Source: an archaeon (GTDB lineage Archaea; Nanobdellota; Nanobdellia; SCGC-AAA011-G17; GW2011-AR20). From it: a stretch of 64,000 nt of DNA. The notes beneath the pieces were generated by a model, which had not been told where the DNA came from, made no database searches, and saw only the letters and a list, made by a program, of their open reading frames with translations. The translations under genes and the position numbers were made by a program. Below, piece after piece: positions 3,330 through 50,119 of this stretch; the first letter of the stretch is position 1, and every line of letters starts with the position of its first letter. The stretch is taken from contig JAZDEO010000028.1 in the NCBI GenBank assembly GCA_043808705.1, positions 2,703 to 66,702 on the forward strand, in the 5' to 3' direction.

Positions 3330-4805
3330 TTAATTTTTTAAAATTTTACTTTCTTTGAAATGATTATTATTACCTATTAAATGTTTATAACCTAGGTTTT
3401 CAAGACTATTTTCTTTTCTTACTCTTATTATGACAGAATCACTTACTCTTACTTTATCCATAATTTCTGAGAATTTTACTGTTGGATTTTCTTTATAAAT
3501 ATCAATTATTTTTTGTATCTTTTCCTGAGGAATCTTACATCTTGATTTATTACCTTTGTCAATTTTGTACTTTTTACAAATTCTTCGTACTACACTTTCA
3601 TGAACCCTAAACTGTTTAGCTATTAAATCATTTGATAGATTCATATTTTCTTTAATAAAATCTGCTATTTCATTTCTCTTTTCTTCATCAGTTTTTACTA
3701 CTCTTTCTCCTAGATTATTTTCTTTTAAAACCCTCTGGACTTTTATTTGGCTTACTCCAACTTTTTCAGCTATTTCCAATGTTCTTGTTGTTCCTGAATT
3801 ATACAATTCTATTATCTTTTCTATTTTTTCTTCAGGAATTTTATTCCATATCTTTTTTTCTCCAGTAAAATAACCGGTCTGATTAGAAATATCAGGATAT
3901 TCTTGCATCATAAACAAAAATTTGGAATATTTACTGGGACTTAGGCACATTAATCTTTGTTTAAGAAGTTTGACTAAGTTTTCTCTTTTTGAAATAATCA
4001 TATCCTTATAATCTTTATATTGTTTGATCTCTATTCCAATTTTATTTAAATATTCTTGATATAAATTTCTTTCATCAGAATTATTAGCTGTTAAATGGAT
4101 TCTATATTTTTTACATTTTTTGTCTATTTCCACACAACTTTCTCCTGCTAAAACTCCTTTTATAAAACTAGATATATCCTTTTTATCATAACTATGAAGA
4201 TTATAAGACAAGTTTTTTACATAGCTTTTTATTATTTGACTAAATAATTTGGATTTGTGTTCTATCATTAAAGTTCCATAATAACAATTTTTCAGTTTTG
4301 TATAATTTGAATTTTTGGTGTAAGTAACTGTTTTTGGATATTTAATTTCATCATTTATCTTTGTTTTTGATAACCAGTAATTAATTATTTTATTTTCGAT
4401 CTCTTTTTTGTAATCTAAATCATTTGGTTCTTGCATATTTAATCTAATATACCATCTCCAATTGTTGAAATTTAATTCTAATTCTTTATTGAACCATTCC
4501 ATAACTTTTTTTATTAATCGGTATTCAGAATTAGCAAAGACTAAACAACCGTTATTTGTTTTTCCCATTTCAGCTTGTAATAAACCTAGAACTTCAAATG
4601 TTTCTTCATTACATTTTATTCTTCTTGGTATTGATGTAGAGTGTTCTCTCCAAGAATCGTTAAAATGTTCAGTTATATATGATAAATCAATATAATACTC
4701 TTCAATATTAATATTTAATTTTATTTCTTTTTCATTATCACCAGACAAAATTCTATCTGGAATATACTCTTTTAGATCAATAAATTTTTTGCCCATATTA
4801 GACAA
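3330..4805 (-). CDS. LAGLIDADG-like double-motif nuclease domain fused to three C-terminal HTH repeats (491 aa)
   Basis: Two LAGLIDADG-like segments (LGLLQAEMG at ~aa 73; GVLAGESCV at ~aa 216), each ending in an acidic residue. Three tandem ~50-aa HTH repeats in the C-terminus. Own promoter with conserved upstream motif. Confidence 0.5.
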   Translation of the reverse strand: MSNMGKKFIDLKEYIPDRILSGDNEKEIKLNINIEEYYIDLSYITEHFNDSWREHSTSIPRRIKCNEETFEVLGLLQAEMGKTNNGCLVFANSEYRLIKKVMEWFNKELELNFNNWRWYIRLNMQEPNDLDYKKEIENKIINYWLSKTKINDEIKYPKTVTYTKNSNYTKLKNCYYGTLMIEHKSKLFSQIIKSYVKNLSYNLHSYDKKDISSFIKGVLAGESCVEIDKKCKKYRIHLTANNSDERNLYQEYLNKIGIEIKQYKDYKDMIISKRENLVKLLKQRLMCLSPSKYSKFLFMMQEYPDISNQTGYFTGEKKIWNKIPEEKIEKIIELYNSGTTRTLEIAEKVGVSQIKVQRVLKENNLGERVVKTDEEKRNEIADFIKENMNLSNDLIAKQFRVHESVVRRICKKYKIDKGNKSRCKIPQEKIQKIIDIYKENPTVKFSEIMDKVRVSDSVIIRVRKENSLENLGYKHLIGNNNHFKESKILKN

Positions 4806-17456: not shown

Positions 17457-18486
17457 GGGGTTGGTGCGAAATTAAAATAAGTTAGTTCTTTTTCTATTCT
17501 CATATGATTCCTGTTGGGGGGTAAGGATTCATAGGAGCAACCAATGAAACGCAAATACCCCAACAAGAAGAAGCGCAAAGGCTTCTGGAAAAGATATGAA
17601 CAAGCTCAAATAAAAGATTATCGGAAAGTATGGGATACTGCTATGAGCTTTATAGCAGAGAAAAGTATTCCATTCACTTTCTCTAAGATTGGAAGAAAAC
17701 CAAACTTAACGAGGAAAGAGTATGTTTGTATGTCTATAACTTATGTTTATTTTGATCTTGATTTCAGAGAATTAGAATATTTAATTGAGTTATTAACTCA
17801 AAAAAGATTAGATCATACTAACTGTGTAAGGTGGTTTGGTAAGTTAGACTTAAATTACATTAATGATATTGTGTTCTCTATACACAAGAAGATTATTGGT
17901 ATAGAAGATGTTGGAGATTACATAACAGACAGCACTAAAGCAACATGCGATCGGCTTAAAATCACAAATGACGGCGGAAAAGATACTTATTATCATATCA
18001 CATGGAAACTTCATGTGATTATACAATACATATTCACTCTAGGTGTGATTAGCGTGATAAGTTTATGGTCTACCAACGGAGAAAGAAGTGAATCTCCCAT
18101 ACTAAGAAACAAACTTCTTAATAAAAAGAAACTGCAAAAATCCAGAAAACTTCATGCAGACAAAGGATATTTTGGGAAAGAGAATATCAAGAAATGCAGA
18201 GAGCTAAACTTGATTCCAAATATAGTGCCTAAGGATCAGATTTACACAGATCCTTATATTAAAAAATACATAAGGAAAGACTATGACAATGAATCCAGAA
18301 AGAATAACAGGGGTTTAGTAGAAGGTTTGTTTGGCGGATTCCAAACAGAAACGGATATGAAAATAAGATGCAGAAAAAATAAACATAGAAATATTTATTT
18401 AGGGTTGCTTGGAGTGAAGCATAACCTAAGATCATACTTAAGAGCAACTGCTTTAAGTATTATTAGGTTATTTCGCACCAACCCCA
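17457..18486 (+). mobile_element. Intact IS element (IS4/IS5-superfamily DDE transposase) with 16-bp terminal inverted repeats and a 9-10-bp target-site duplication
   Basis: Left end GGGGTTGGTGCGAAAT (17457-17472) matches the reverse complement of the right end ATTTCGCACCAACCCC (18471-18486) exactly. Direct repeat AGTTAAATA(G) flanks both ends at 17448-17456 and 18487-18495. Confidence 0.85.
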
Positions 18487-18491
18487 GTTAA
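17544..18491 (+). CDS. DDE transposase (DDE_Tnp_1, IS4/IS5 superfamily)
   Basis: …HADKGYFGKEN… and C-terminal …NRGLVEGLFGGFQ… motifs; the stop codon lies in the flanking duplication. Confidence 0.75.
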   Translation: MKRKYPNKKKRKGFWKRYEQAQIKDYRKVWDTAMSFIAEKSIPFTFSKIGRKPNLTRKEYVCMSITYVYFDLDFRELEYLIELLTQKRLDHTNCVRWFGKLDLNYINDIVFSIHKKIIGIEDVGDYITDSTKATCDRLKITNDGGKDTYYHITWKLHVIIQYIFTLGVISVISLWSTNGERSESPILRNKLLNKKKLQKSRKLHADKGYFGKENIKKCRELNLIPNIVPKDQIYTDPYIKKYIRKDYDNESRKNNRGLVEGLFGGFQTETDMKIRCRKNKHRNIYLGLLGVKHNLRSYLRATALSIIRLFRTNPS

Positions 18492-41582: not shown

Positions 41583-42827
41583 TTATTCATTTATAAATTT
41601 GCTTAGGTAATTATATCCGGTAATATTCCAATCATATTGTAAGGTATTAATCTTTATAGCTTCTATTTCTTCTGGAGCAAAATCAGAAGCTTGTACAGGA
41701 GAATGACTAATGTAATTAGGATCCAAACTATGACCAAACATTCCTAAACTATGTGTCATTTCATGACAGAAAGTTCTATATATATTAACAGAACTAGGAA
41801 AATTATTCTTTAGATTTACAACTCCACCAAGTAAATGACTACTAGGCATATTAGGAGCAAAAGAACTACCACCAGATTGAGTATAATTTAAACTAATATT
41901 AGCACTATCAGAGGTACTAACTTCTCTAAATAAATCTAATCCTGTTTTCTGATTCATACTGTCTAGAGCAGCCCTTTCTGTATTAATGTAAAGTTGCCAG
42001 TTGCTTCCACAATATTGTTGAGCCTGTTGTGGATCTAAAAAAACTCTTTGAGGATAAGGAGTTAAAGGATTGTTAGGATATTCTCCATAGTTAACAAAAC
42101 AATCGATTTCAGCAGTTAGGTCATTAATCAATTCTTTTATATCACCATAATACTGAGTATTAATAGGAATATAAGGAATTAATCTAACATTCTTTGTTAC
42201 AGCACTATCAATAGCAATAGTATCAACAAAATCATAAAAACTTCCAATGAATTCAGGAATATTATCATCACTCACATTAAATATATAATCTGTGTCTGTT
42301 CCATTAACTTTTTTAACACCAGCTTTTGAAGAATTATTAGTATTATTAACAAAATTTAAACTCATAATTGGCTGATATATTACATTATATTGGATATTTC
42401 CTCTTATTACATTATTTTGATTAAGAACTATTATTCTTTGAATGCCTTCTCCTATATTATCATTTCTTTGTATAAAATATATGCCTGAGCTTAAATCATT
42501 TACTTTATTTTCTAATGTATTTTCTTCAAACCTTTTAACTCTTCTACCCATTGTATCAAAGATTTCATATCTTATCTGTCTTCCTGCCTGGGGATGTAGT
42601 ATAGGGCTTATAGGAACAGATGTACCTGGAATCTGATAAAATCCATCCAAGTCAGTATAGTCCTGCCCTAATCCAGGAACATCAACCATGGCATCTACTA
42701 TAGGATCTCTAGGATAACTTCCAGAACTATTAATATGACCTTCTATTGATTGAGAATTGGCTGTATTTAATCCTACTAATAAAGACAAGCCAGCTATTCC
42801 CAGTTTTAGTTTGTTTAATAAGGACAT
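41583..42827 (-). CDS. secreted HExxH zinc metalloprotease (paralog 2)
   Basis: MSLLNKLKL… signal peptide; CHEMTHSLGMFGH zinc motif. LSSGIYFIQRND segment resembles a Por/T9SS sorting-domain beta-strand. Confidence 0.55.
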   Translation of the reverse strand: MSLLNKLKLGIAGLSLLVGLNTANSQSIEGHINSSGSYPRDPIVDAMVDVPGLGQDYTDLDGFYQIPGTSVPISPILHPQAGRQIRYEIFDTMGRRVKRFEENTLENKVNDLSSGIYFIQRNDNIGEGIQRIIVLNQNNVIRGNIQYNVIYQPIMSLNFVNNTNNSSKAGVKKVNGTDTDYIFNVSDDNIPEFIGSFYDFVDTIAIDSAVTKNVRLIPYIPINTQYYGDIKELINDLTAEIDCFVNYGEYPNNPLTPYPQRVFLDPQQAQQYCGSNWQLYINTERAALDSMNQKTGLDLFREVSTSDSANISLNYTQSGGSSFAPNMPSSHLLGGVVNLKNNFPSSVNIYRTFCHEMTHSLGMFGHSLDPNYISHSPVQASDFAPEEIEAIKINTLQYDWNITGYNYLSKFINE

Positions 42828-42883: not shown

Positions 42884-44173
42884 TTACTCTTCAACAAAAT
42901 TATATAAATATCCTGGTCCAGTTACATAGTAAGGATACTGTAGTACATGATTTTGCATTGTTTCTATTTCTTCTGGTTGGAAGTCAAAAGCCTGTACAGG
43001 AGCATAAGAAATATAATCAGGATCATCACTATGTCCTTCCATCCCTAGACCATGTATCCCTAGTTCATGACAGAAAGTTCTGTATATATTAATAAAATTA
43101 GGATAATTACTTTTTAAATTTAAAACTCCCCCAACAAAATAATAGTTCCCACCAATATTTTGATAATTAGGGCTCCAATTACTATTACCTGTTGTGATGT
43201 AATTTAAAGAAATGTTAGCACTATCTGGAGTGCTTACTTCTCTAAATAAATCTAATCCTGTTTTATTATTCATACTGTCTAGAGCAGCTCTTTCTGTATT
43301 AATGTAAAGTTGCCAGTTGCTTCCACAATACTGTTGAGCTTGTGGTGCATTTAAGTAAACTCTTTGAGGATAAGGAGTTAAAGAATTATTAGGATATTCT
43401 CCATAATTTACTATAAAACAGTTTCCACTTGGAAAGGTTTCTAAATCTTTGAATAAATCCAATAATTCATCATAATACTGTGTTCCAATTGTAAACTGAG
43501 GAATCAGTCTAACATCTTTAGTTATGGAAGTATCTACAGCTAGAGTATCTATATAATCATAAAAACTTCCAATGAATTCAGGGATATTATCATCAGAAAC
43601 TGTAAAAATATAATCTGTATCTGTTCCATTAACTTCTTTAACACCAGCTTTTGAAGAATTATTAGTATTATTAACAGAATTTAAACTCATAATTGGTTGA
43701 TATCTTACATTATATTGAATATTTCCTCTTATTACATTATTCTGATTAAGGACTATTATTCTTTGAATGCCTTCCCCTATATTATCATTTCTTTGTATAA
43801 AATATATGCCTGAGCTTAAATCATTTACTTTATTTTCTAAAGGGTCTCCTTCAAACCTTTTAATTACTCTACCCATTACATCAAAGATTTCATATCTTAT
43901 CTGTCTTCCTGCCTGTGGATGTATTATAGGACCTATAGGAACAGATGAGCCTGGAATTTCATAAAATCCATCCAAGTCAGTATAGTCCTGACCTAGTCCA
44001 GGAGCATCAACCATGGCATCTGCTATAGGATCTCTAGGATAACTTCCAGAATCATTAATATGACCTTCAATGGATTGAGCATTAGCTGTATTTAAATTAA
44101 AAGCTAAGGCTAGTCCTGTAACCAGTAATCCTATATTTGTTTTTGCTGATTTTAATCTGCTTTTTAAGGACAT
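42884..44173 (-). CDS. secreted HExxH zinc metalloprotease (paralog 3)
   Basis: MSLKSRLKS… signal; CHELGIHGLGMEGH; ~85% similar to paralog 2 over the N-terminal 200 aa. Confidence 0.55.
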   Translation of the reverse strand: MSLKSRLKSAKTNIGLLVTGLALAFNLNTANAQSIEGHINDSGSYPRDPIADAMVDAPGLGQDYTDLDGFYEIPGSSVPIGPIIHPQAGRQIRYEIFDVMGRVIKRFEGDPLENKVNDLSSGIYFIQRNDNIGEGIQRIIVLNQNNVIRGNIQYNVRYQPIMSLNSVNNTNNSSKAGVKEVNGTDTDYIFTVSDDNIPEFIGSFYDYIDTLAVDTSITKDVRLIPQFTIGTQYYDELLDLFKDLETFPSGNCFIVNYGEYPNNSLTPYPQRVYLNAPQAQQYCGSNWQLYINTERAALDSMNNKTGLDLFREVSTPDSANISLNYITTGNSNWSPNYQNIGGNYYFVGGVLNLKSNYPNFINIYRTFCHELGIHGLGMEGHSDDPDYISYAPVQAFDFQPEEIETMQNHVLQYPYYVTGPGYLYNFVEE

Positions 44174-44385: not shown

Positions 44386-45054
44386 TCATAAAAAGCTACA
44401 AGGAGAGACTTTATTTATGATATATTCAAAATCATAATTTTTTGATTGTGAAGGAAAAATACCTTCTTCTTTTTTATCTTTGTTTATTATTTTTTTAAGT
44501 CTTAAATTATAAATATTTCCATTATTTATTACAAAGTTGACAATGATTAAATCATTTTTTAACCACCCTCTCAAATAATATCCACAAGGAATAAATTCTT
44601 TTTTATTTATTACTATTTTTTCTTTGCTTGCGTGAAAGTTACCTGTAATAAATATGTTTATTTTTTTATTATCTAAATTTAAGTTTTCTTTAATCTCTCT
44701 ATACATAAGATAATCTCTATCCTTTATTTCATTTGGGTCAACACAAATAATCTTTAGATTAAAATCTAACAGACACTTTATTAAATATAAGTTTTCTTTG
44801 CTGTCTCTACCATCTTTATTAGAGTTTTTAAAGAAAGGCATCTTAAACAAATCATTTTCATTTATAGATTTTACATAATCATTGATATATTTCTGTTGAT
44901 CTTTTGGGATTTCTAAGAAAATTAAGTTTATATCATCTTTTAATAAAGTAATAATTTTTTGTATTATCAATGGGATTTCTTTTGTACCATGAATTTCACC
45001 AAATAAAAGAAGTTTCTTGTCTTTTACTCTTTTTAGTAAATAATTATATTCCAT
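44386..45054 (-). CDS. Tiki/TraB/ChaN-superfamily (GExH…GxxH) putative peptidase; likely start at the third in-frame Met
   Basis: LLFGEIHGTKE and ITGNFHASKE paired His motifs; the track ORF extends to 45126, overlapping the ATP-grasp 3' end. Confidence 0.4.
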   Translation of the reverse strand: MEYNYLLKRVKDKKLLLFGEIHGTKEIPLIIQKIITLLKDDINLIFLEIPKDQQKYINDYVKSINENDLFKMPFFKNSNKDGRDSKENLYLIKCLLDFNLKIICVDPNEIKDRDYLMYREIKENLNLDNKKINIFITGNFHASKEKIVINKKEFIPCGYYLRGWLKNDLIIVNFVINNGNIYNLRLKKIINKDKKEEGIFPSQSKNYDFEYIINKVSPCSFL

Positions 45055-45059
45055 TGTAC

Positions 45060-46025
45060 TTAAAGCAGGTTTTCTGCTACATCTTTTGTTAAATTGTAAC
45101 CCGATTTTAATTCTAACCATAACCACTGTCCATTTGGGTTAAGTTCCAAAAAAACGTATTTTCCATCTTTTGTAAATATAAAATCAAATTCCCCAAAGAA
45201 TAGATTATAATGCTTGATCATATCACTGCAAAAGGAAGAAACATTTATAGGTAAATCAACCAATTCATATCTTACATTTTTAAAGTCATATCTCCTAAAA
45301 TCTATTTTTGATAATTCTGAATCTTGAGAATGAATAGCAATACCAATAACTTTATTTTCTAAAGCTGTAATTCTTAATTCATATTCCTTTTTTATATAAG
45401 TCTGAAAAAGACTCGGATTGTTTTTAATAAGATGGGAATATTGCATATTCTCTTCATTTACAATATTATTGTAGGTTGTTAAATATTCTCCATTATCTTT
45501 TTTAACAAGAGCTGCCTTTTGCAGTTTATGGCAAATTTTATGATTCCTTTCTCTATGGACATTATAAAACTTAATAAATATTTCAGAATTATTTGTTAAA
45601 ATAGTTTCAGGTATATCTATACCGCCATAATTTTTAGCAAAACATAATTGATCTATTTTATTGTTTGCTGCAAAATTAGCCTGTGGTCTATTAACTACTT
45701 TCCCCTTATGTGTAAAAAGTAAACCTTCCCAAGTTCTTTTTGTTTCTGTAAAAATAATCTCTTCAAGTTCTTTTGGTGTATCTTTAGGTATCTCTGGATC
45801 CATAACTCTTCTGTTCCATATATTCCAACCTTCATCAATAGTTATTGTTTTGTCACTATTAGCAACAATATAAAGACCACTATTAGAATCAAAACTAATT
45901 CTATAATTCTCTATAAGTTTGTCTGTATTTATCCTAAAATACTCTATTTTTTTATCTTTAAAGAAATTACAAACCGATTCGGCGTGTAAGTCTTCTTCAT
46001 ATGTTAAAATTAATACTTTATTCAC
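45060..46025 (-). CDS. MdnC/MvdD-type RiPP ATP-grasp ligase (graspetide macrocyclase-like)
   Basis: N-terminus VLILTYEEDLHAESV…EYFRINTDKLI and C-terminus YVFLELNPNGQWLWLEL parallel the microviridin ligase pattern from memory (VLIVTFSRD…FRFDTDRFP…YIFLEINPVGEFFWLEL). Internal NIWNRRV and ELRITALENKVIGIAI blocks also match. Confidence 0.65.
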   Translation of the reverse strand: MNKVLILTYEEDLHAESVCNFFKDKKIEYFRINTDKLIENYRISFDSNSGLYIVANSDKTITIDEGWNIWNRRVMDPEIPKDTPKELEEIIFTETKRTWEGLLFTHKGKVVNRPQANFAANNKIDQLCFAKNYGGIDIPETILTNNSEIFIKFYNVHRERNHKICHKLQKAALVKKDNGEYLTTYNNIVNEENMQYSHLIKNNPSLFQTYIKKEYELRITALENKVIGIAIHSQDSELSKIDFRRYDFKNVRYELVDLPINVSSFCSDMIKHYNLFFGEFDFIFTKDGKYVFLELNPNGQWLWLELKSGYNLTKDVAENLL

Positions 46026-46047
46026 TTTATATATTTAAAATAAAAAA

Positions 46048-46236
46048 TTAAAAATCATCTATAACCGGAATCAACTTTATAGTACATGCTGTTGGTGTAA
46101 TTGCCATCTTATAATCTCCAGATATAACTGGTTTTTCTAGATACTGTTGGCAAAATAATGTATATTCTATGCATAAATTTTGATTCGAATTATTCGCTTT
46201 TACTCTTTCCTTTCCAACTATTGATTCTATTTCCAT
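46048..46236 (-). CDS. candidate graspetide precursor peptide (62 aa)
   Basis: Strong Shine-Dalgarno (GGAGGT) 6 nt upstream. Stop is 22 nt before the ligase start. C-terminal core TPTACTIKLIPVIDDF carries Thr/Lys donors and Asp/Asp acceptors. Leader segment YTLFCQQYL loosely resembles the PFFARFL recognition motif. Confidence 0.4.
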   Translation of the reverse strand: MEIESIVGKERVKANNSNQNLCIEYTLFCQQYLEKPVISGDYKMAITPTACTIKLIPVIDDF

Positions 46237-46394
46237 GTTTTATACCTCCACAGTTTTATATATTTTATTGATATTTAAATTTATCTTATATATTTTTACA
46301 TATAAGGTCTATTTTATTAGATATTTTAATTTTAAGAGGTATATAAAGACCTTAGTAAATTTTTTTCTATAATTTTTTTAGTAATTTATTTATT

Positions 46395-47003: not shown

Positions 47004-48920
47004 TTAAGTTTGTCCTTGCGACCAGCCTCCACCACCAGAACTGGAATAAACAACAATATCTTTCCATTCATAGTAATTCATTATTCCTAAACCTATTTTA
47101 AAACAACATGATTCTTCATATGGCAAACTTGATGGAGGGTTATTTATAGGACCAAACTCAATACAAAAGGGGTTTAATAAATTGTAATAAGGAAAAGTTG
47201 AGATAATACAAAAATTATTTTCAGTACCTACATGGCATACATCTCCAATTTCTGTTTGACATCTATTCTGTATTGCATTATAATAAAATCCTTCAGGACA
47301 CCAATGATTGTTAGTACAATGCTCTAATCCAGTATTACCAGGACCAGTATAAATATTAGACAAAGTATTATTATCATAACAAAGTCCATTATAAACACAA
47401 TCAGCAGGAGAGTTACAACAAACAACATCTGCATTATTCTGTCCTTGAGGAACGCAAGTTGTATATGTAAATGGTCCTGAAGTAGGATCATACATACTCC
47501 AAACACAATTACTATATGTCTGTAAACCATTTTCACAACACTTTGTAGAATAAGGAGGATTAACAGGGGGATCTGAACCTTCATAGTATCTACACATAAA
47601 GCCATTAGTAGGAGGAGCTTCAGAGGCTGTACAACAACCATCAATAGCATTTGCAGGACTACAAGTATAACCTGTACCACCACAACATTGTTGTGTATTA
47701 AAGTGACATTTATTAGGCCCTGAGGTATAACATAATAAATTACCTCCAGCATATGGACTATTGATATTATAATTTGTACAATCTTTTCCATTAAGGTTTA
47801 AAGGTGGACCTGGATCACACTGTTCACCTATACTAGGCTCTACTTGACCATTGCCACAGTAAAAACAATCAGGATCAGCTAAATCTATAAGATGATCACA
47901 ATCATTATCTACTCCATCTGTGCATATTTCCCATCCAGGAATTGGATTTGAATTTAGATAAGGACCAGTATTACAAACATCATTAAAAGTTGTACCAAAA
48001 GGACAACAATAAGAGTTAGATTGTACATTTGAGTCATAAAAAAATTTAACTTCACCATCATCACATTCTGGGTCTAAATACTCTACCAACCAATCTCCAC
48101 TATAGTTCCAATAATTATGTGTTACATTAAATCTGAAATTTTCTAGATTAAGGTTTCTACAATAACTACCATCATTAGAAAAACAAAAACCAATTTCAGA
48201 ATAGTCATCTCCAGGATATTTATAATTTGTACCATAATAATTATTATCGATTACATTATAATTAATTCTAATATCTGAAAGATAGGTTGAAGGATAATCT
48301 ATATAAATACCATAACCAGTGTTATTAATTATACAATTATACTTGATGTCTATCAAATCAGCATTTCTTATGTTTATTGCACCACTACCCACCTCTAAAA
48401 AACCCATAATACCACCATTTTTAAAAAATGAGTTTTTTTCTATAAAAATTTTACCACTCCCATAATCTTGATTAGTTGGGATATATATACCGTCTTTATT
48501 ATTAATAAAACTATTATACATAAACTTAATATCTGTAAGCTCTAAATTTGAATTTTCATCAATATAAACCCCTTTTGAAAAATTTTTTATAACACAATTC
48601 CTTATAGTTATATTATAATACCACATATTATTTTGTGCATCCATATATATACCATTATTTAACCATGTTGATCCTATCTGGCTTATAGTATGATTGTTAC
48701 AGTTCAATATCAAATTTGAGCCAGGATTATAAAAATATATTTTTAAAGCAAAAGCCGTATTACAATTTAAATCATTATTTAATGTATAACTGGAGGTTAC
48801 AGTATCCTCACAACTACATGGAGTGAAACCACCACAATTATCTGCATTAACATAAAACAAACTAAACAAAAATACAATCAAAATTAATGGTATTAATAAT
48901 AATTTCTTCATCATAACCAC
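47004..48920 (-). CDS. secreted Cys-rich surface protein with parallel beta-helix (pectate-lyase-like) repeats and a Gly-rich C-terminus
   Basis: Signal peptide; repeated …N/I..N..DG.YI… beta-helix rungs; >40 Cys in the C-terminal half. Confidence 0.5.
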   Translation of the reverse strand: MVMMKKLLLIPLILIVFLFSLFYVNADNCGGFTPCSCEDTVTSSYTLNNDLNCNTAFALKIYFYNPGSNLILNCNNHTISQIGSTWLNNGIYMDAQNNMWYYNITIRNCVIKNFSKGVYIDENSNLELTDIKFMYNSFINNKDGIYIPTNQDYGSGKIFIEKNSFFKNGGIMGFLEVGSGAINIRNADLIDIKYNCIINNTGYGIYIDYPSTYLSDIRINYNVIDNNYYGTNYKYPGDDYSEIGFCFSNDGSYCRNLNLENFRFNVTHNYWNYSGDWLVEYLDPECDDGEVKFFYDSNVQSNSYCCPFGTTFNDVCNTGPYLNSNPIPGWEICTDGVDNDCDHLIDLADPDCFYCGNGQVEPSIGEQCDPGPPLNLNGKDCTNYNINSPYAGGNLLCYTSGPNKCHFNTQQCCGGTGYTCSPANAIDGCCTASEAPPTNGFMCRYYEGSDPPVNPPYSTKCCENGLQTYSNCVWSMYDPTSGPFTYTTCVPQGQNNADVVCCNSPADCVYNGLCYDNNTLSNIYTGPGNTGLEHCTNNHWCPEGFYYNAIQNRCQTEIGDVCHVGTENNFCIISTFPYYNLLNPFCIEFGPINNPPSSLPYEESCCFKIGLGIMNYYEWKDIVVYSSSGGGGWSQGQT

Positions 48921-50119
48921 ACCTTTATCTTGCTTATTACAAGATTTAATATGCTTGTACTTACTTTAGGGCAATTATCCATACATGGTGCACCTTGATT
49001 ATTTAATGTTACATTAGATGCTTCATCATAATTATTACTATTAGCATCTCTAGCTGCTGCTGTTATTCTAAATGCTTTATAGTCTCCACCGCAATTTATT
49101 GAATTCCATGTATAGGTGAATATATTATTATTTCTATTAAAACCTGGTGTTGCTTGTGTGGGTGACCATGTAGCTAATAAGTTACAGTTTGGTTCAATAA
49201 TTGTATTACACCACGCACAATTACTTGTTGGATCTGCTGGTTGATAATATGGTGATGTTGCATTTCCTGTATTTTTATATAAAGTTATATTTAGAGAGGT
49301 TATATTTGTAAAACCTATATCTTCTGGAGGATCTTCTCCAGCCATTCCTGTAATCCTCAATATAAGGTCTCCTTCTAGGCCAGTACCTCCGGAACCAGGA
49401 TTTTCTTCTTCATCTGGTTCTTGAATGCCTGGTTGTGTAGTATATCTACTTGATGCATTTACCTTTATTGGAACATCTCCAATGTATATATGATTTTCAT
49501 CTGGATCTAATACATTTACATATGGTTTTGTTACTCCAGAAACAAATACGGTGTCTAGAGATGCTTGCATATACACCTTATAAGAGTATCTTGTTCCTCC
49601 AAAAGAAGAGGTATAAGCAGTATAGTTTAATGTGCATATTTTTCCTCCAGTAACTGGAATACATGTACAGTCATTTGGGTTGATTGGAGCAATTGAATCC
49701 TGACATTGTATAGCACCTAATTGAATAAAACTCATACCAATTTGTTGAGAGAAGTTAACATAAAACTGTGATATTGATACTGTAAAGAGTTCTACTTGTA
49801 TTAAAGCAAAACTACTTGGAGGTAAATTAGAATCAATTAATGCTGTTAGATTCCCACAATCTGGATTACAATCTGGATCACACGGAAAGCATCTATTATA
49901 AGTACCAGGATAATTATTATTTTGACAGCCAGCAGACAACCAATCTCCATAATATTCTGGGCATTTTTGATCTGATACATAAGAACAAGATAGATTATAT
50001 TGTCCTTGGCAGAATCCAGCCTTTGTACATTGAACAGAATATGCAAAAGGCACTATTAATAATATTAATAATAAGTATATTATGTATTTGGTTTTGATCT
50101 TAATTTTAATTGGTTTCAT
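48911..50119 (-). CDS. secreted Cys-rich protein (402 aa)
   Basis: N-terminal signal/TM; many Cys; overlaps the previous gene like an operon. Confidence 0.4.
   Translation of the reverse strand: MKPIKIKIKTKYIIYLLLILLIVPFAYSVQCTKAGFCQGQYNLSCSYVSDQKCPEYYGDWLSAGCQNNNYPGTYNRCFPCDPDCNPDCGNLTALIDSNLPPSSFALIQVELFTVSISQFYVNFSQQIGMSFIQLGAIQCQDSIAPINPNDCTCIPVTGGKICTLNYTAYTSSFGGTRYSYKVYMQASLDTVFVSGVTKPYVNVLDPDENHIYIGDVPIKVNASSRYTTQPGIQEPDEEENPGSGGTGLEGDLILRITGMAGEDPPEDIGFTNITSLNITLYKNTGNATSPYYQPADPTSNCAWCNTIIEPNCNLLATWSPTQATPGFNRNNNIFTYTWNSINCGGDYKAFRITAAARDANSNNYDEASNVTLNNQGAPCMDNCPKVSTSILNLVISKIKVWL

What the first reader, a model, noticed from the sequence alone, without database searches (positions are those of the whole stretch)
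44386..46394. Compact precursor + MdnC-type ATP-grasp + Tiki/TraB-like operon: a candidate graspetide RiPP cluster in an archaeal genome
Three co-directional, tightly spaced minus-strand genes. The first is a 62-aa ORF with a strong GGAGGT Shine-Dalgarno 6 nt upstream, whose stop lies 22 nt before the next start. The second is a 321-aa protein whose N-terminus, internal blocks and C-terminus (YVFLELNPNGQWLWLEL) follow the microviridin/graspetide ligase (MdnC/MvdD) pattern rather than RimK/GshB. The third is a GExH…GxxH protein of the Tiki/TraB/ChaN superfamily. That superfamily includes PrgY, a peptide-pheromone-processing protease, so this gene is a plausible leader peptidase. The small ORF's C-terminus (KMAITPTACTIKLIPVIDDF) carries the Thr/Lys and Asp residues needed for omega-ester/amide crosslinks. 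Its leader has an aromatic/hydrophobic YTLFCQQYL stretch loosely reminiscent of the PFFARFL ligase-recognition motif. Graspetide clusters are essentially bacterial, and this peptidase partner is unusual in any case. An archaeal (DPANN-like) host with this combination would be new.
Basis: partly seen in the sequence, partly recalled or inferred. Interest (0 to 1): 0.85.

Follow-up and report, generated by a model that had tools for sequence, protein, structure and literature searches.

The report
Graspetide peptide cluster in DPANN archaea
A tiny archaeon carries a three-gene kit (a small peptide, an enzyme that staples it into rings, and a cutting enzyme) that recurs across dozens of related DPANN archaea, and I found no published description of this class of ring-stapled peptides in archaea.

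Summary
Window 44386-46236 (minus strand) encodes three genes.

- **Precursor (62 aa).** It has a conserved leader motif and a C-terminal core.
- **Ligase (321 aa).** By sequence and by predicted fold it is a graspetide macrocyclase of the MdnC/MdnB/CdnC/PsnB type, not RimK.
- **Hydrolase (222 aa).** It is cytoplasmic, belongs to the Tiki/erythromycin-esterase/ChaN superfamily, and keeps the full 2His/2Glu catalytic set.

The contig is archaeal: it also carries proteasome alpha, SBDS, Rrp4 and RNA polymerase D. The cluster has the same G+C content as the rest of the window.

In 29 related loci (nearly all of the named ones are DPANN MAGs) only this trio is conserved. The precursor is recognisable in 25 of 26 loci with upstream DNA (counting two weak hits), and the hydrolase in 22 of 27 with downstream DNA.

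About 74 precursors share the core h-[TS]-P-[TS]-x-[C/S]-[TS]-Φ-[K/R]-G-[IV]-P-x-[IL]-D-D-[FWY]. Its invariant residues are written with several synonymous codons.

The likely chemistry is Thr/Ser-to-Asp ω-esters. The Lys is not conserved, so a lactam is unlikely. Whether the hydrolase removes the leader or opens lactones is unresolved.

Partial precedents exist: CPR graspetide loci with Tiki/TraB genes (Makarova 2022), and unassigned archaeal ligases in that paper's supplement. I rate this a new variant of a known kind, of moderate to high interest.

The parts
46244..46249 (-). Shine-Dalgarno-like GGAGGT, 7 nt upstream of the precursor ATG
   Evidence: Read directly from the sequence.
46272..46279 (-). 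TTTAAATA, an archaeal TATA-box-like octamer 36-43 nt upstream of the precursor ATG (weak; the DNA here is AT-rich)
   Evidence: Read from the sequence. This is inference only. The sigma-70 promoter scan was no better than shuffled sequence.
46048..46236 (-). Graspetide precursor gene (62 aa; NCBI V1663_03525, annotated 'hypothetical protein')
46129..46158 (-). Codons for the leader recognition motif L27-F-C-Q-Q-Y-L-E-K-P36 (family consensus [YF]xxF[ASCG]E[QM][YF][LF]E.P)
   Evidence: Conserved in 23 aligned loci and about 74 precursors.
46051..46098 (-). Codons for the core T47-P-T49-A-C51-T52-I-K54-L-I-P57-V-I-D60-D61-F62
   Evidence: Column statistics over 74 precursors: T/S at -11 in 73/74, C/S at -9 in 73/74, T/S at -8 in 73/74, P at -3 in 72/74, DD in 74/74. 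Synonymous codons underlie the invariant residues.
45060..46025 (-). MdnC/MvdD-type ATP-grasp peptide macrocyclase (321 aa; V1663_03520)
44386..45054 (-). Compact cytoplasmic hydrolase of the Tiki/erythromycin-esterase/ChaN superfamily (222 aa; V1663_03515); catalytic E20, H22, E48, H141

Best explanation
This is a self-contained three-gene graspetide (ω-ester peptide) biosynthetic module native to a DPANN archaeon.

**Proposed mechanism.**
1. The 62-aa precursor is translated.
2. Its conserved leader segment (LFCQQYLEKP) docks on the pre-ATP-grasp N-domain of the ligase.
3. The ligase uses ATP to activate the side-chain carboxylates of D60 and D61 as acyl phosphates.
4. Conserved hydroxyl side chains in the T47-x-T49-x-C51-T52 block capture the acyl phosphates. 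This closes one or two macrolactone rings around the Φ-[K/R]-G-[I/V]-P loop, giving a hairpin-like, C-terminally anchored bicycle.
5. The hydrolase, whose start lies 5 nt after the ligase stop, then processes the modified peptide. Most likely it cuts off the leader somewhere between the EKP motif and the core (for example after ...YKMA45).

The product probably acts as a protease inhibitor, like other graspetides.

**Shown here:** the identity of the ligase family; conservation and coding status of the precursor; the catalytic motif and fold of the hydrolase; conservation of the trio; the archaeal host.

**Inferred:** ester chemistry, ring partners, cleavage site, hydrolase substrate, and biological role.
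For: **Ligase**
- PF21068 at 1.7e-10, above its gathering threshold.
- Full-length matches to TIGR04185, TIGR04187 and TIGR04184 at 4e-54 to 2e-46, against RimK at 4e-7.
- The profile finds only six graspetide ligase sequences in the PDB.
- The AF2 model (pLDDT 90.5) matches MdnC, CdnC, AMdnB, MdnB, PruB and PsnB at TM 0.75-0.85, ahead of RimK at 0.62.
- The ATP-grasp residues K167, E216, R218, D281, E294 and N296 are invariant.

**Precursor**
- An ORF scoring E <= 1e-6 against the precursor profile lies next to the ligase in 23 related loci, and two more score weakly.
- The family numbers 63 true representatives at 50% identity.
- The core columns are near-invariant.
- Invariant Thr, Arg, Gly, Pro, Cys and Asp are written with 2-6 synonymous codons each.

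**Hydrolase**
- E20, H22, E48 and H141 are invariant. Their spacing matches RRSP E3900/H3902/E3930/H4030, the residues shown to be essential there (PMC6254334).

**Module and host**
- Only the trio is shared among the 30 loci (29 related loci plus the window).
- The hydrolase is adjacent in 22 of 27 related loci but in only 3 of 130 loci outside the clade.
- Archaeal hallmark genes lie on the same contig, and G+C is uniform.
Against: - There is no chemical evidence. No mass spectrometry, expression or activity data exist.
- The ligase scores below the curated cut-offs of every NCBIfam graspetide equivalog, so its regiochemistry cannot be transferred from a characterised enzyme.
- Four hydroxyl or thiol positions compete for two Asp acceptors, so the ring topology is undetermined.
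- The hydrolase's closest folds are esterases rather than peptidases.
- Five related loci lack the hydrolase, including L081, whose core is almost identical to the window's. It is therefore accessory, replaceable, or encoded elsewhere.
- No exporter or immunity gene accompanies the module.
Confidence: 0.85

Rival explanations
1. The module is as described, but the third protein is not the leader peptidase. Instead it is an ω-ester (macrolactone) hydrolase. It would open the rings of the graspetide for self-protection, turnover, proofreading of mis-closed rings, or timed inactivation.
For: - 5 of 19 family members give weak PF05139 (Erythro_esteras) hits.
- The protein is cytoplasmic, like the ligase, and is dispensable in some loci. 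That is what one expects of an accessory or immunity function.
- Makarova et al. raised the same possibility for an Ere homologue in other graspetide loci.
Against: - The 2His/2Glu site is shared with the peptidase RRSP, so the fold does not discriminate between ester and amide substrates.
- The module would then have no dedicated leader protease at all.
- A hydrolase that undoes the ligase's product, co-translated from the same operon, would create a futile ATP-consuming cycle unless it is regulated.
Confidence: 0.3
2. The crosslink is (also) a Lys-Asp ω-amide, as in microviridins, using K54.
For: - The best NCBIfam and PDB sequence scores go, marginally, to the amide-forming MvdC/MdnB/AMdnB type.
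- The window's core has a Lys at position -6.
Against: - Position -6 is K in 35 precursors, R in 28, and neither in 11 of 74. Ligases of about 50% identity therefore work on Arg-containing cores that cannot form a lactam there.
- Only one ligase gene is present, whereas microviridin clusters use two.
Confidence: 0.07
3. The third gene is a functionally unrelated ChaN-like haem-binding or uptake protein that merely sits next to the ligase.
For: The only Pfam family matched is PF04187 (Cofac_haem_bdg, ChaN), at 25.9 bits.
Against: - The hit falls below the gathering score and covers only the N-terminal GExH region.
- There is no signal peptide or lipobox; the N-terminus is MEYNYLLKRVKDKK.
- The catalytic 2His/2Glu set is invariant.
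- The gene lies 5 nt after, or overlaps, the ligase gene, and is adjacent in 22 of 27 related loci against 3 of 130 outside.
Confidence: 0.03
4. The ligase is a RimK/LysX-type protein-tail ligase, or the small ORF is a spurious ORF and not the substrate.
For: - RimK-family models give weak hits (PF08443 at 0.011; TIGR00768 at 4e-7).
- Some sources label homologues as 'glutathione synthase/RimK-type ligase'.
Against: - Graspetide models outscore RimK by about 150 bits.
- Structural ranking puts all graspetide ligases ahead of RimK.
- The small ORF is conserved in position, in motif, and at the amino-acid level rather than the nucleotide level.
Confidence: 0.02
5. The cluster is bacterial DNA (CPR or Bacteroidota) wrongly joined to, or binned with, an archaeal contig.
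For: - One close homologue lies on a 304-kb contig labelled Lutibacter (L004), and one cluster is labelled Patescibacteria.
- The nearest relatives outside the clade include at least one CPR (Saccharibacteria) locus; most of the others are unlabelled metagenome contigs.
Against: - The same 64-kb window holds archaeal proteasome alpha, SBDS, Rrp4 and RpoD, all scoring above their curated cut-offs.
- G+C of the cluster (25-27%) equals that of the window.
- 15 of the 16 closest genome loci are independent DPANN assemblies, including a single-cell genome.
Confidence: 0.03

Closest known systems
Microviridin system (MdnA precursor; MdnC/MvdD ester ligase; MdnB/MvdC amide ligase)
   Same: - Leader-dependent ATP-grasp macrocyclase with the MvdD pre-ATP-grasp domain.
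- Precursor gene directly upstream of the ligase.
- Aromatic/hydrophobic leader motif: F-x-E-x-Y-L here against PFFARFL there.
- Thr/Ser plus acidic residues in a C-terminal core.
   Different: - One ligase rather than two.
- No conserved Lys.
- The core is h[TS]P[TS]x[CS][TS]Φ[KR]G[IV]Px[IL]DD[FWY] instead of TxKxPSDx(E/D)(D/E).
- No GNAT or ABC-transporter genes.
- Only about 25% identity to MdnC, and below the NCBIfam equivalog cut-offs.
- The host is an archaeon.
CPR-bacterial graspetide loci (branches 1 and 2 of Makarova et al. 2022, PMC8939145)
   Same: - Hosts are small-genome, probably episymbiotic organisms.
- A single ligase.
- Leader motif of the 'Phhx(1,2)h' kind.
- Thr...Asp core signatures.
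- Some loci carry a Tiki/TraB-family hydrolase.
- Here, the CPR loci L038, L125 and L046 have a homologous hydrolase and a loosely similar precursor (PFAALFADFYTNP...TKSATRCGTKEFNIIDD).
   Different: - Ligases are at most 38.5% identical to the DPANN clade, against a 49.5% median within it.
- In the CPR loci found here the hydrolase is on the opposite strand. They commonly also carry 'cluster 23' proteins, SPASM or methyltransferase genes, which are absent here.
- The DPANN core motif does not fit their TxxxTx(6-10)Dx(1-4)D signature.
Plesiocin/thuringinin-type ω-ester peptides (single-ligase, ester-only graspetides; PsnB structure 7drm)
   Same: One ATP-grasp ligase, and an ester-only chemistry is expected. 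The likely topology is hairpin-like, with Thr on one strand and acidic residues on the other (my knowledge of those families). PsnB is a structural match.
   Different: PsnB is a distant match (E 2.8e-11; 16-19% identity). Those precursors carry repeated core units such as TTxxxxEE, from memory. Here there is a single core at the extreme C-terminus, ending in DD plus an aromatic residue.
Tiki / erythromycin esterase / ChaN / RRSP / TraB-PrgY superfamily
   Different: - At 222 aa it is a bare catalytic core, about half the size of Ere enzymes.
- It has no membrane-localisation or N-lobe domains as in RRSP, and no signal peptide as in ChaN.
- It passes no curated family threshold.
- Its substrate is unknown. 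No member of this superfamily has been shown to act on a RiPP, and the 2023 review of RiPP leader proteases does not mention the superfamily.

Membership tests
Graspetide (ω-ester/ω-amide RiPP) biosynthetic cluster | ATP-grasp ligase of the MdnC/MvdD type with the pre-ATP-grasp (leader-binding) N-domain | tested here: met
   PF21068 at 41.4 bits against a cut-off of 27. Full-length hits to four RiPP ATP-grasp NCBIfam models. The PDB profile search returns only graspetide ligases. The fold ranking agrees.
Graspetide (ω-ester/ω-amide RiPP) biosynthetic cluster | Adjacent small precursor gene with a conserved leader and a core holding Thr/Ser/Lys donors and Asp/Glu acceptors | tested here: met
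   A precursor lies next to the ligase in 25 of 26 related loci with upstream DNA (two of them weak hits). The leader motif and the TxTxCT...DD core are conserved, and synonymous codon variation is seen under invariant residues.
Graspetide (ω-ester/ω-amide RiPP) biosynthetic cluster | Side-chain to side-chain ester or amide macrocycles in the mature peptide | not testable with these tools
   Requires co-expression and mass spectrometry.
NCBIfam equivalogs MvdC (TIGR04185), MvdD (TIGR04184), SAV_5884 subfamily (TIGR04187), grasp-with-spasm (TIGR04192) | Score at or above the curated cut-off | tested here: not met
   Scores against cut-offs: 183.7 vs 425; 158.8 vs 475; 168.5 vs 350; 110 vs 230. 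It is related to all four but a member of none, so it is a separate subfamily.
Microviridin family | Two ligases and a TxKxPSDx(E/D)(D/E) core with a conserved Lys | tested here: not met
   There is a single ligase, and only the trio is conserved. Position -6 is K or R and the core motif differs.
Tiki/Ere/ChaN (TIKI) superfamily | α/β TIKI fold with a parallel β-sheet core | tested here: met
Tiki/Ere/ChaN (TIKI) superfamily | Catalytic 2His/2Glu set (GExH ... E ... GxxH) | tested here: met
   E20, H22, E48 and H141 are invariant in 19 sequences. The spacing equals that of RRSP E3900/H3902/E3930/H4030.
ChaN haem-binding lipoprotein (PF04187) | Pfam gathering score; secreted lipoprotein | tested here: not met
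   25.9 bits against a cut-off of 27.7, covering the N-terminal 69 residues only. No signal peptide or lipobox is visible in the sequence. Haem-binding residues were not examined.
Erythromycin esterase (PF05139) | Pfam match at the family threshold; about 400-aa two-lobe enzyme | tested here: not met
   The window protein gives no hit. Only 5 of 19 relatives hit, the best at E 0.0059. The protein is 222 aa.
RiPP leader peptidase | Cleaves the leader from the modified precursor | not testable with these tools
   Only genomic coupling and an intact hydrolase site support this.

The most novel reading that the evidence does not exclude
The module makes the first archaeal graspetide, and its chemistry goes beyond known graspetides in three ways.

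1. The nearly invariant Cys at core position -9 is replaced only by Ser, in 9-10 of 74 precursors. It may be a ring-forming nucleophile, giving a Cys-Asp thiolactone beside a Thr-Asp lactone.
2. The compact Tiki/Ere-like enzyme may be the first member of that superfamily dedicated to processing a RiPP, either by leader removal or by controlled lactone opening.
3. The K/R-G-[IV]-P loop held between the rings may act as a trypsin-type protease-inhibitor loop that DPANN episymbionts use on their hosts.
Probability: 0.12. Interest if true: 0.85.

Novelty: new variant of a known kind. Interest (0 to 1): 0.62.

Why it matters
**A new host domain for a known peptide class.** Graspetides are known from bacteria as protease inhibitors. 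RiPPs of any class are scarce in archaea, and I found no paper linking graspetides with Nanoarchaeota, Woesearchaeota or Pacearchaeota.

**A defined, portable, testable family.** This finding is more than one locus. The three-gene module is found in more than 100 ligase clusters, mostly from DPANN MAGs. Its precursor motif matches no Pfam or NCBIfam model. The whole system is about 1.9 kb with a single substrate, which makes it easy to reconstitute in E. coli.

**What it could reveal:**
- a new ring topology;
- what a Tiki/erythromycin-esterase-type enzyme does to a RiPP;
- what ultra-small, host-dependent archaea use such peptides for.

The link to related CPR-bacterial loci also bears on gene sharing between the two episymbiotic radiations.

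Tried and rejected
- **The look-up of encoding contigs:** returned nothing for the window ligase or for P0001, so I could not retrieve the source record. Host identity came instead from NCBI names and from hallmark genes.
- **tRNA and Rfam scans of the window:** empty.
- **Sigma-70 promoter and terminator scan:** 24 sites against 20.1 expected, so uninformative, and the wrong model for an archaeon.
- **Hydrolase profile against PDB sequences:** only chance hits. Fold comparison was needed instead.
- **afdb50 fold library:** unavailable.
- **PADLOC:** no hit. PHROGs gave only a weak RimK-like hit, so there is no evidence for a defence-system or viral origin.
- **Strict regex for the leader motif:** missed half the precursors. 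I replaced it with an HMM.
- **Biopython NJ tree of 152 ligases:** timed out. I used pairwise identity statistics instead, so monophyly of the DPANN clade rests on distances, not on a tree.
- **Long proteins P0170 and P0203 from the precursor profile search:** repetitive false positives.
- **Neighbouring window genes** (two secreted zincin-like paralogues downstream; the 142-aa ORF and Cys-rich proteins upstream): considered as cluster members and rejected, because none recurs in related loci.
- **Literature:** Ramesh et al. 2021 and Choi & Link 2023 are not held. I could not check whether they list archaeal graspetides.
Full report
**1. What is in the sequence.**
On the minus strand, three ORFs lie head to tail.
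- A 62-aa ORF at 46048..46236. It starts with ATG, and GGAGGT lies 7 nt upstream.
- After a 22-nt gap, a 321-aa ORF at 45060..46025 with a GTG start.
- After a 5-nt gap, a 222-aa ORF at 44386..45054.

The mechanical ORF list extends the third gene to GTG 45126, inside the ligase gene. Homologues begin where the ATG at 45054 does. A precursor HMM run over all six frames found no second precursor anywhere in the window.

**2. The ligase.**
- Pfam gives the MvdD pre-ATP-grasp domain above threshold, and RimK only at E 0.011.
- NCBIfam gives full-length alignments to the MvdC, SAV_5884, MvdD and grasp-with-spasm peptide maturases (4e-54 to 1e-31), against RimK at 4e-7. All of these scores fall below the curated equivalog cut-offs.
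- A profile built from 15 family members finds exactly six sequences in the PDB, all graspetide macrocyclases: AMdnB, MdnB, CdnC, MdnC, PruB (9bou) and PsnB.
- An AF2 model (pLDDT 90.5) ranks 32 chains of those enzymes first, at TM 0.75-0.85. RimK, ArgX and LysX follow at about 0.62.
- The usual ATP-grasp residues are invariant.

The enzyme is a graspetide ligase of a subfamily that no curated model covers.

**3. The small ORF is a real, conserved precursor.**
A genome scan and a metagenome scan with the ligase alignment returned 160 loci. Of these, 29 form a tight clade with the window.
- Ligase identity within the clade has a median of 49.5% and a minimum of 38.9%.
- Identity to everything else has a maximum of 38.5% and a median of 29%.

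In 25 of the 26 clade loci that have upstream DNA, a homologous small ORF sits next to the ligase. It lies directly upstream, except in L008, where it follows the hydrolase. Two of the 25 (L090, L013) match the profile only weakly. Database searches added annotated peptides. They also gave 63 true representatives at 50% identity out of 1.84 billion proteins.

Across 74 precursors the N-terminal ~30 residues are hypervariable. Two conserved elements follow.
- C-terminal core: h-[TS]-P-[TS]-x-[C/S]-[TS]-Φ-[K/R]-G-[I/V]-P-x-[I/L]-D-D. An aromatic last residue follows in 65 of 74, and a short follower in 8.

The column counts are DD in 74/74, T/S at -11 in 73/74, C at -9 in 64 (S in 9), T/S at -8 in 73, and P at -3 in 72.

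The invariant residues are written with several synonymous codons: Thr with 4, Arg with 6, Gly with 3, Pro with 3. Selection therefore acts on the peptide, not on the DNA. The peptide matches no Pfam or NCBIfam model.

**4. The third protein.**
- Nineteen relatives share invariant G19-E20-x-H22-G-T-K-E, E48, G82, S85, G138-x-x-H141 and N183.
- The pattern E-x-H, then 28 residues to E, then about 93 to H, reproduces the 2His/2Glu set (E3900, H3902, E3930, H4030). That set was shown by mutagenesis to be essential in the TIKI-family endopeptidase RRSP (PMC6254334).
- The AF2 model is confident (pLDDT 93).
- All 19 relatives hit PF04187 weakly, and five hit the erythromycin-esterase model weakly. 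None reaches family membership.
- It has no signal peptide or membrane segment.

It is thus an intact, compact, cytoplasmic hydrolase. The fold does not say whether it cuts amides, as RRSP and Tiki do, or esters, as Ere enzymes do.

**5. Module and host.**
All-against-all clustering of ORFs from the 30 loci (29 related loci plus the window) finds only three recurrent families: ligase, hydrolase and precursor. No exporter, immunity gene or further tailoring gene recurs.

The hydrolase is adjacent in 22 of the 27 related loci that have downstream DNA. It usually overlaps the ligase gene or starts within a few nucleotides of its end, and in two loci it is convergent. It is absent in five loci: L004/L085, L013, L081 and L090. 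Outside the clade it appears in 3 of 130 loci, the taxonomically labelled ones being CPR bacteria.

The window is archaeal. It encodes the archaeal proteasome alpha subunit, SBDS, exosome Rrp4 and RNA polymerase subunit D, all above curated cut-offs, plus a FlaI-like ATPase. NCBI names all three cluster proteins '[archaeon]'. The cluster's G+C (25-27%) matches the window.

The closest genome loci come from Nanoarchaeota, Pacearchaeota and Woesearchaeota MAGs and from a single-cell genome. One exception is a 304-kb contig labelled Lutibacter. More than 100 ligase clusters at 45-69% identity exist.

**6. Most likely mechanism (inferred).**
1. The leader motif binds the pre-ATP-grasp domain, as MdnA does in MdnC.
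2. The ligase phosphorylates the D60 and D61 side chains.
3. Conserved hydroxyls attack to form macrolactones. T49 and T52 are the best candidates; T47 and C51 are alternatives. This would fold the Φ-[K/R]-G-[I/V]-P segment into a constrained loop.

A Lys-Asp lactam is unlikely because position -6 is K or R interchangeably.

The hydrolase then processes the product. I favour leader removal in the length-variable linker between EKP and the core. That linker often ends in a small residue followed by a hydrophobic one (AG|F, VG|L, MA|I).

The esterase alternative is serious, and I give it about 0.3. The best fold matches are macrolactone esterases, and the gene is dispensable in a locus whose core is almost the same (L081).

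A protease-inhibitor role with a basic P1-like residue is an analogy with other graspetides, not a result.

**7. Relation to what is known.**
Makarova et al. 2022 (PMC8939145) described graspetide loci in CPR bacteria. They defined a 'Phhx(1,2)h' leader motif and mentioned Tiki/TraB-family and erythromycin-esterase-like genes in some loci. Tiki/TraB is not among their 18 commonly associated families.

Their supplementary table lists ATP-grasps from 'archaeon GW2011_AR18' and a euryarchaeote, with no precursor assigned and no discussion. None of the core strings I searched for occurs in the supplements as held; the file that holds the archaeal entries was truncated when stored.

No paper in the library combines graspetides with DPANN taxa. 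A 2023 review of RiPP leader proteases does not mention the TIKI superfamily. Two key graspetide papers were not available to me.

**8. Verdict.**
The class (graspetide) and the idea of a Tiki-type partner are known. The following are new:
- a coherent, widespread family centred on DPANN archaea;
- a previously undescribed precursor and core signature;
- a tightly coupled minimal Ere/Tiki-like hydrolase;
- a suggestive Cys/Ser position in the core.

I rate it a new variant of a known kind, with interest about 0.6. Chemistry and function remain untested.

Noticed in passing
window 41583-42827 (-) and 42884-44173 (-): Two tandem paralogues (414 and 429 aa) lie just downstream of the module. Each has a signal-like N-terminus, a weak Por_Secre_tail (PF18962) hit in the N-terminal third, and a C-terminal zincin-like HEMTH...G..H motif; the second copy has HELGIH instead. 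Neither is conserved next to the module elsewhere.
   Followed up: partly
window 47004-48920 (-) and 48911-50119 (-): Two large, Cys-rich, secreted-looking proteins (638 and 402 aa) with no Pfam match lie upstream of the module.
   Followed up: no
L004 3812-4966 (RefSeq MAG 'Lutibacter sp.', 304-kb contig) and L085: A precursor plus ligase (53% identical to the window ligase, core KVTITTCTFRNIPTIDDF) occurs without the hydrolase, beside a ThiF/E1-like gene. This could be transfer between DPANN archaea and Bacteroidota, or a mislabelled contig.
   Followed up: partly
core position -9 (window C51; codon 46084-46086): This position is Cys in 64 and Ser in 9-10 of 74 precursors, and never another small residue. 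That exchange pattern is what one expects of a nucleophile (thioester or ester) rather than a packing residue.
   Followed up: partly
L002 2093-2285: The leader and core of the precursor lie in two different reading frames. This is a frameshift, either a pseudogene or an assembly error.
   Followed up: no
L001 3600-3986 (= P0214, 101 aa): This precursor has two leader motifs in tandem (YKTFSEIFLEE and MFFSEQFFERP) before a single core, and a follower PDLDDI that repeats the DD.
   Followed up: no
L012, L091, L092 and P0187, P0190, P0199, P0202, P0207, P0211: A minority of precursors continue past the DD with short acidic followers (ADMLE, ADTW, ADFFEVGG, PDWDDR and others). In L091 and L092 the hydrolase gene is on the opposite strand.
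   Followed up: no
hydrolase C-terminus (window 44389-44409): A nearly invariant C-terminal motif, VSPCSF (P218, C219), lies outside the 2His/2Glu site. Its role is unknown.
   Followed up: no
window 17544-18491 (+) and 3330-4805 (-): A DDE transposase and a LAGLIDADG/HTH protein lie on the same contig, so mobile elements are present in this small genome.
   Followed up: no
L038 3653-3910, L046 3640-3912 (CPR bacteria): CPR loci with a homologous hydrolase carry precursors that loosely resemble the DPANN ones. Examples are PFAALFADFYTNP...TKSATRCGTKEFNIIDDQRSSD and VPFAMRYMQQP...TTTYSTDCGPGSSPDDG. This hints at a shared ancestry of the module across the two episymbiotic radiations.
   Followed up: partly
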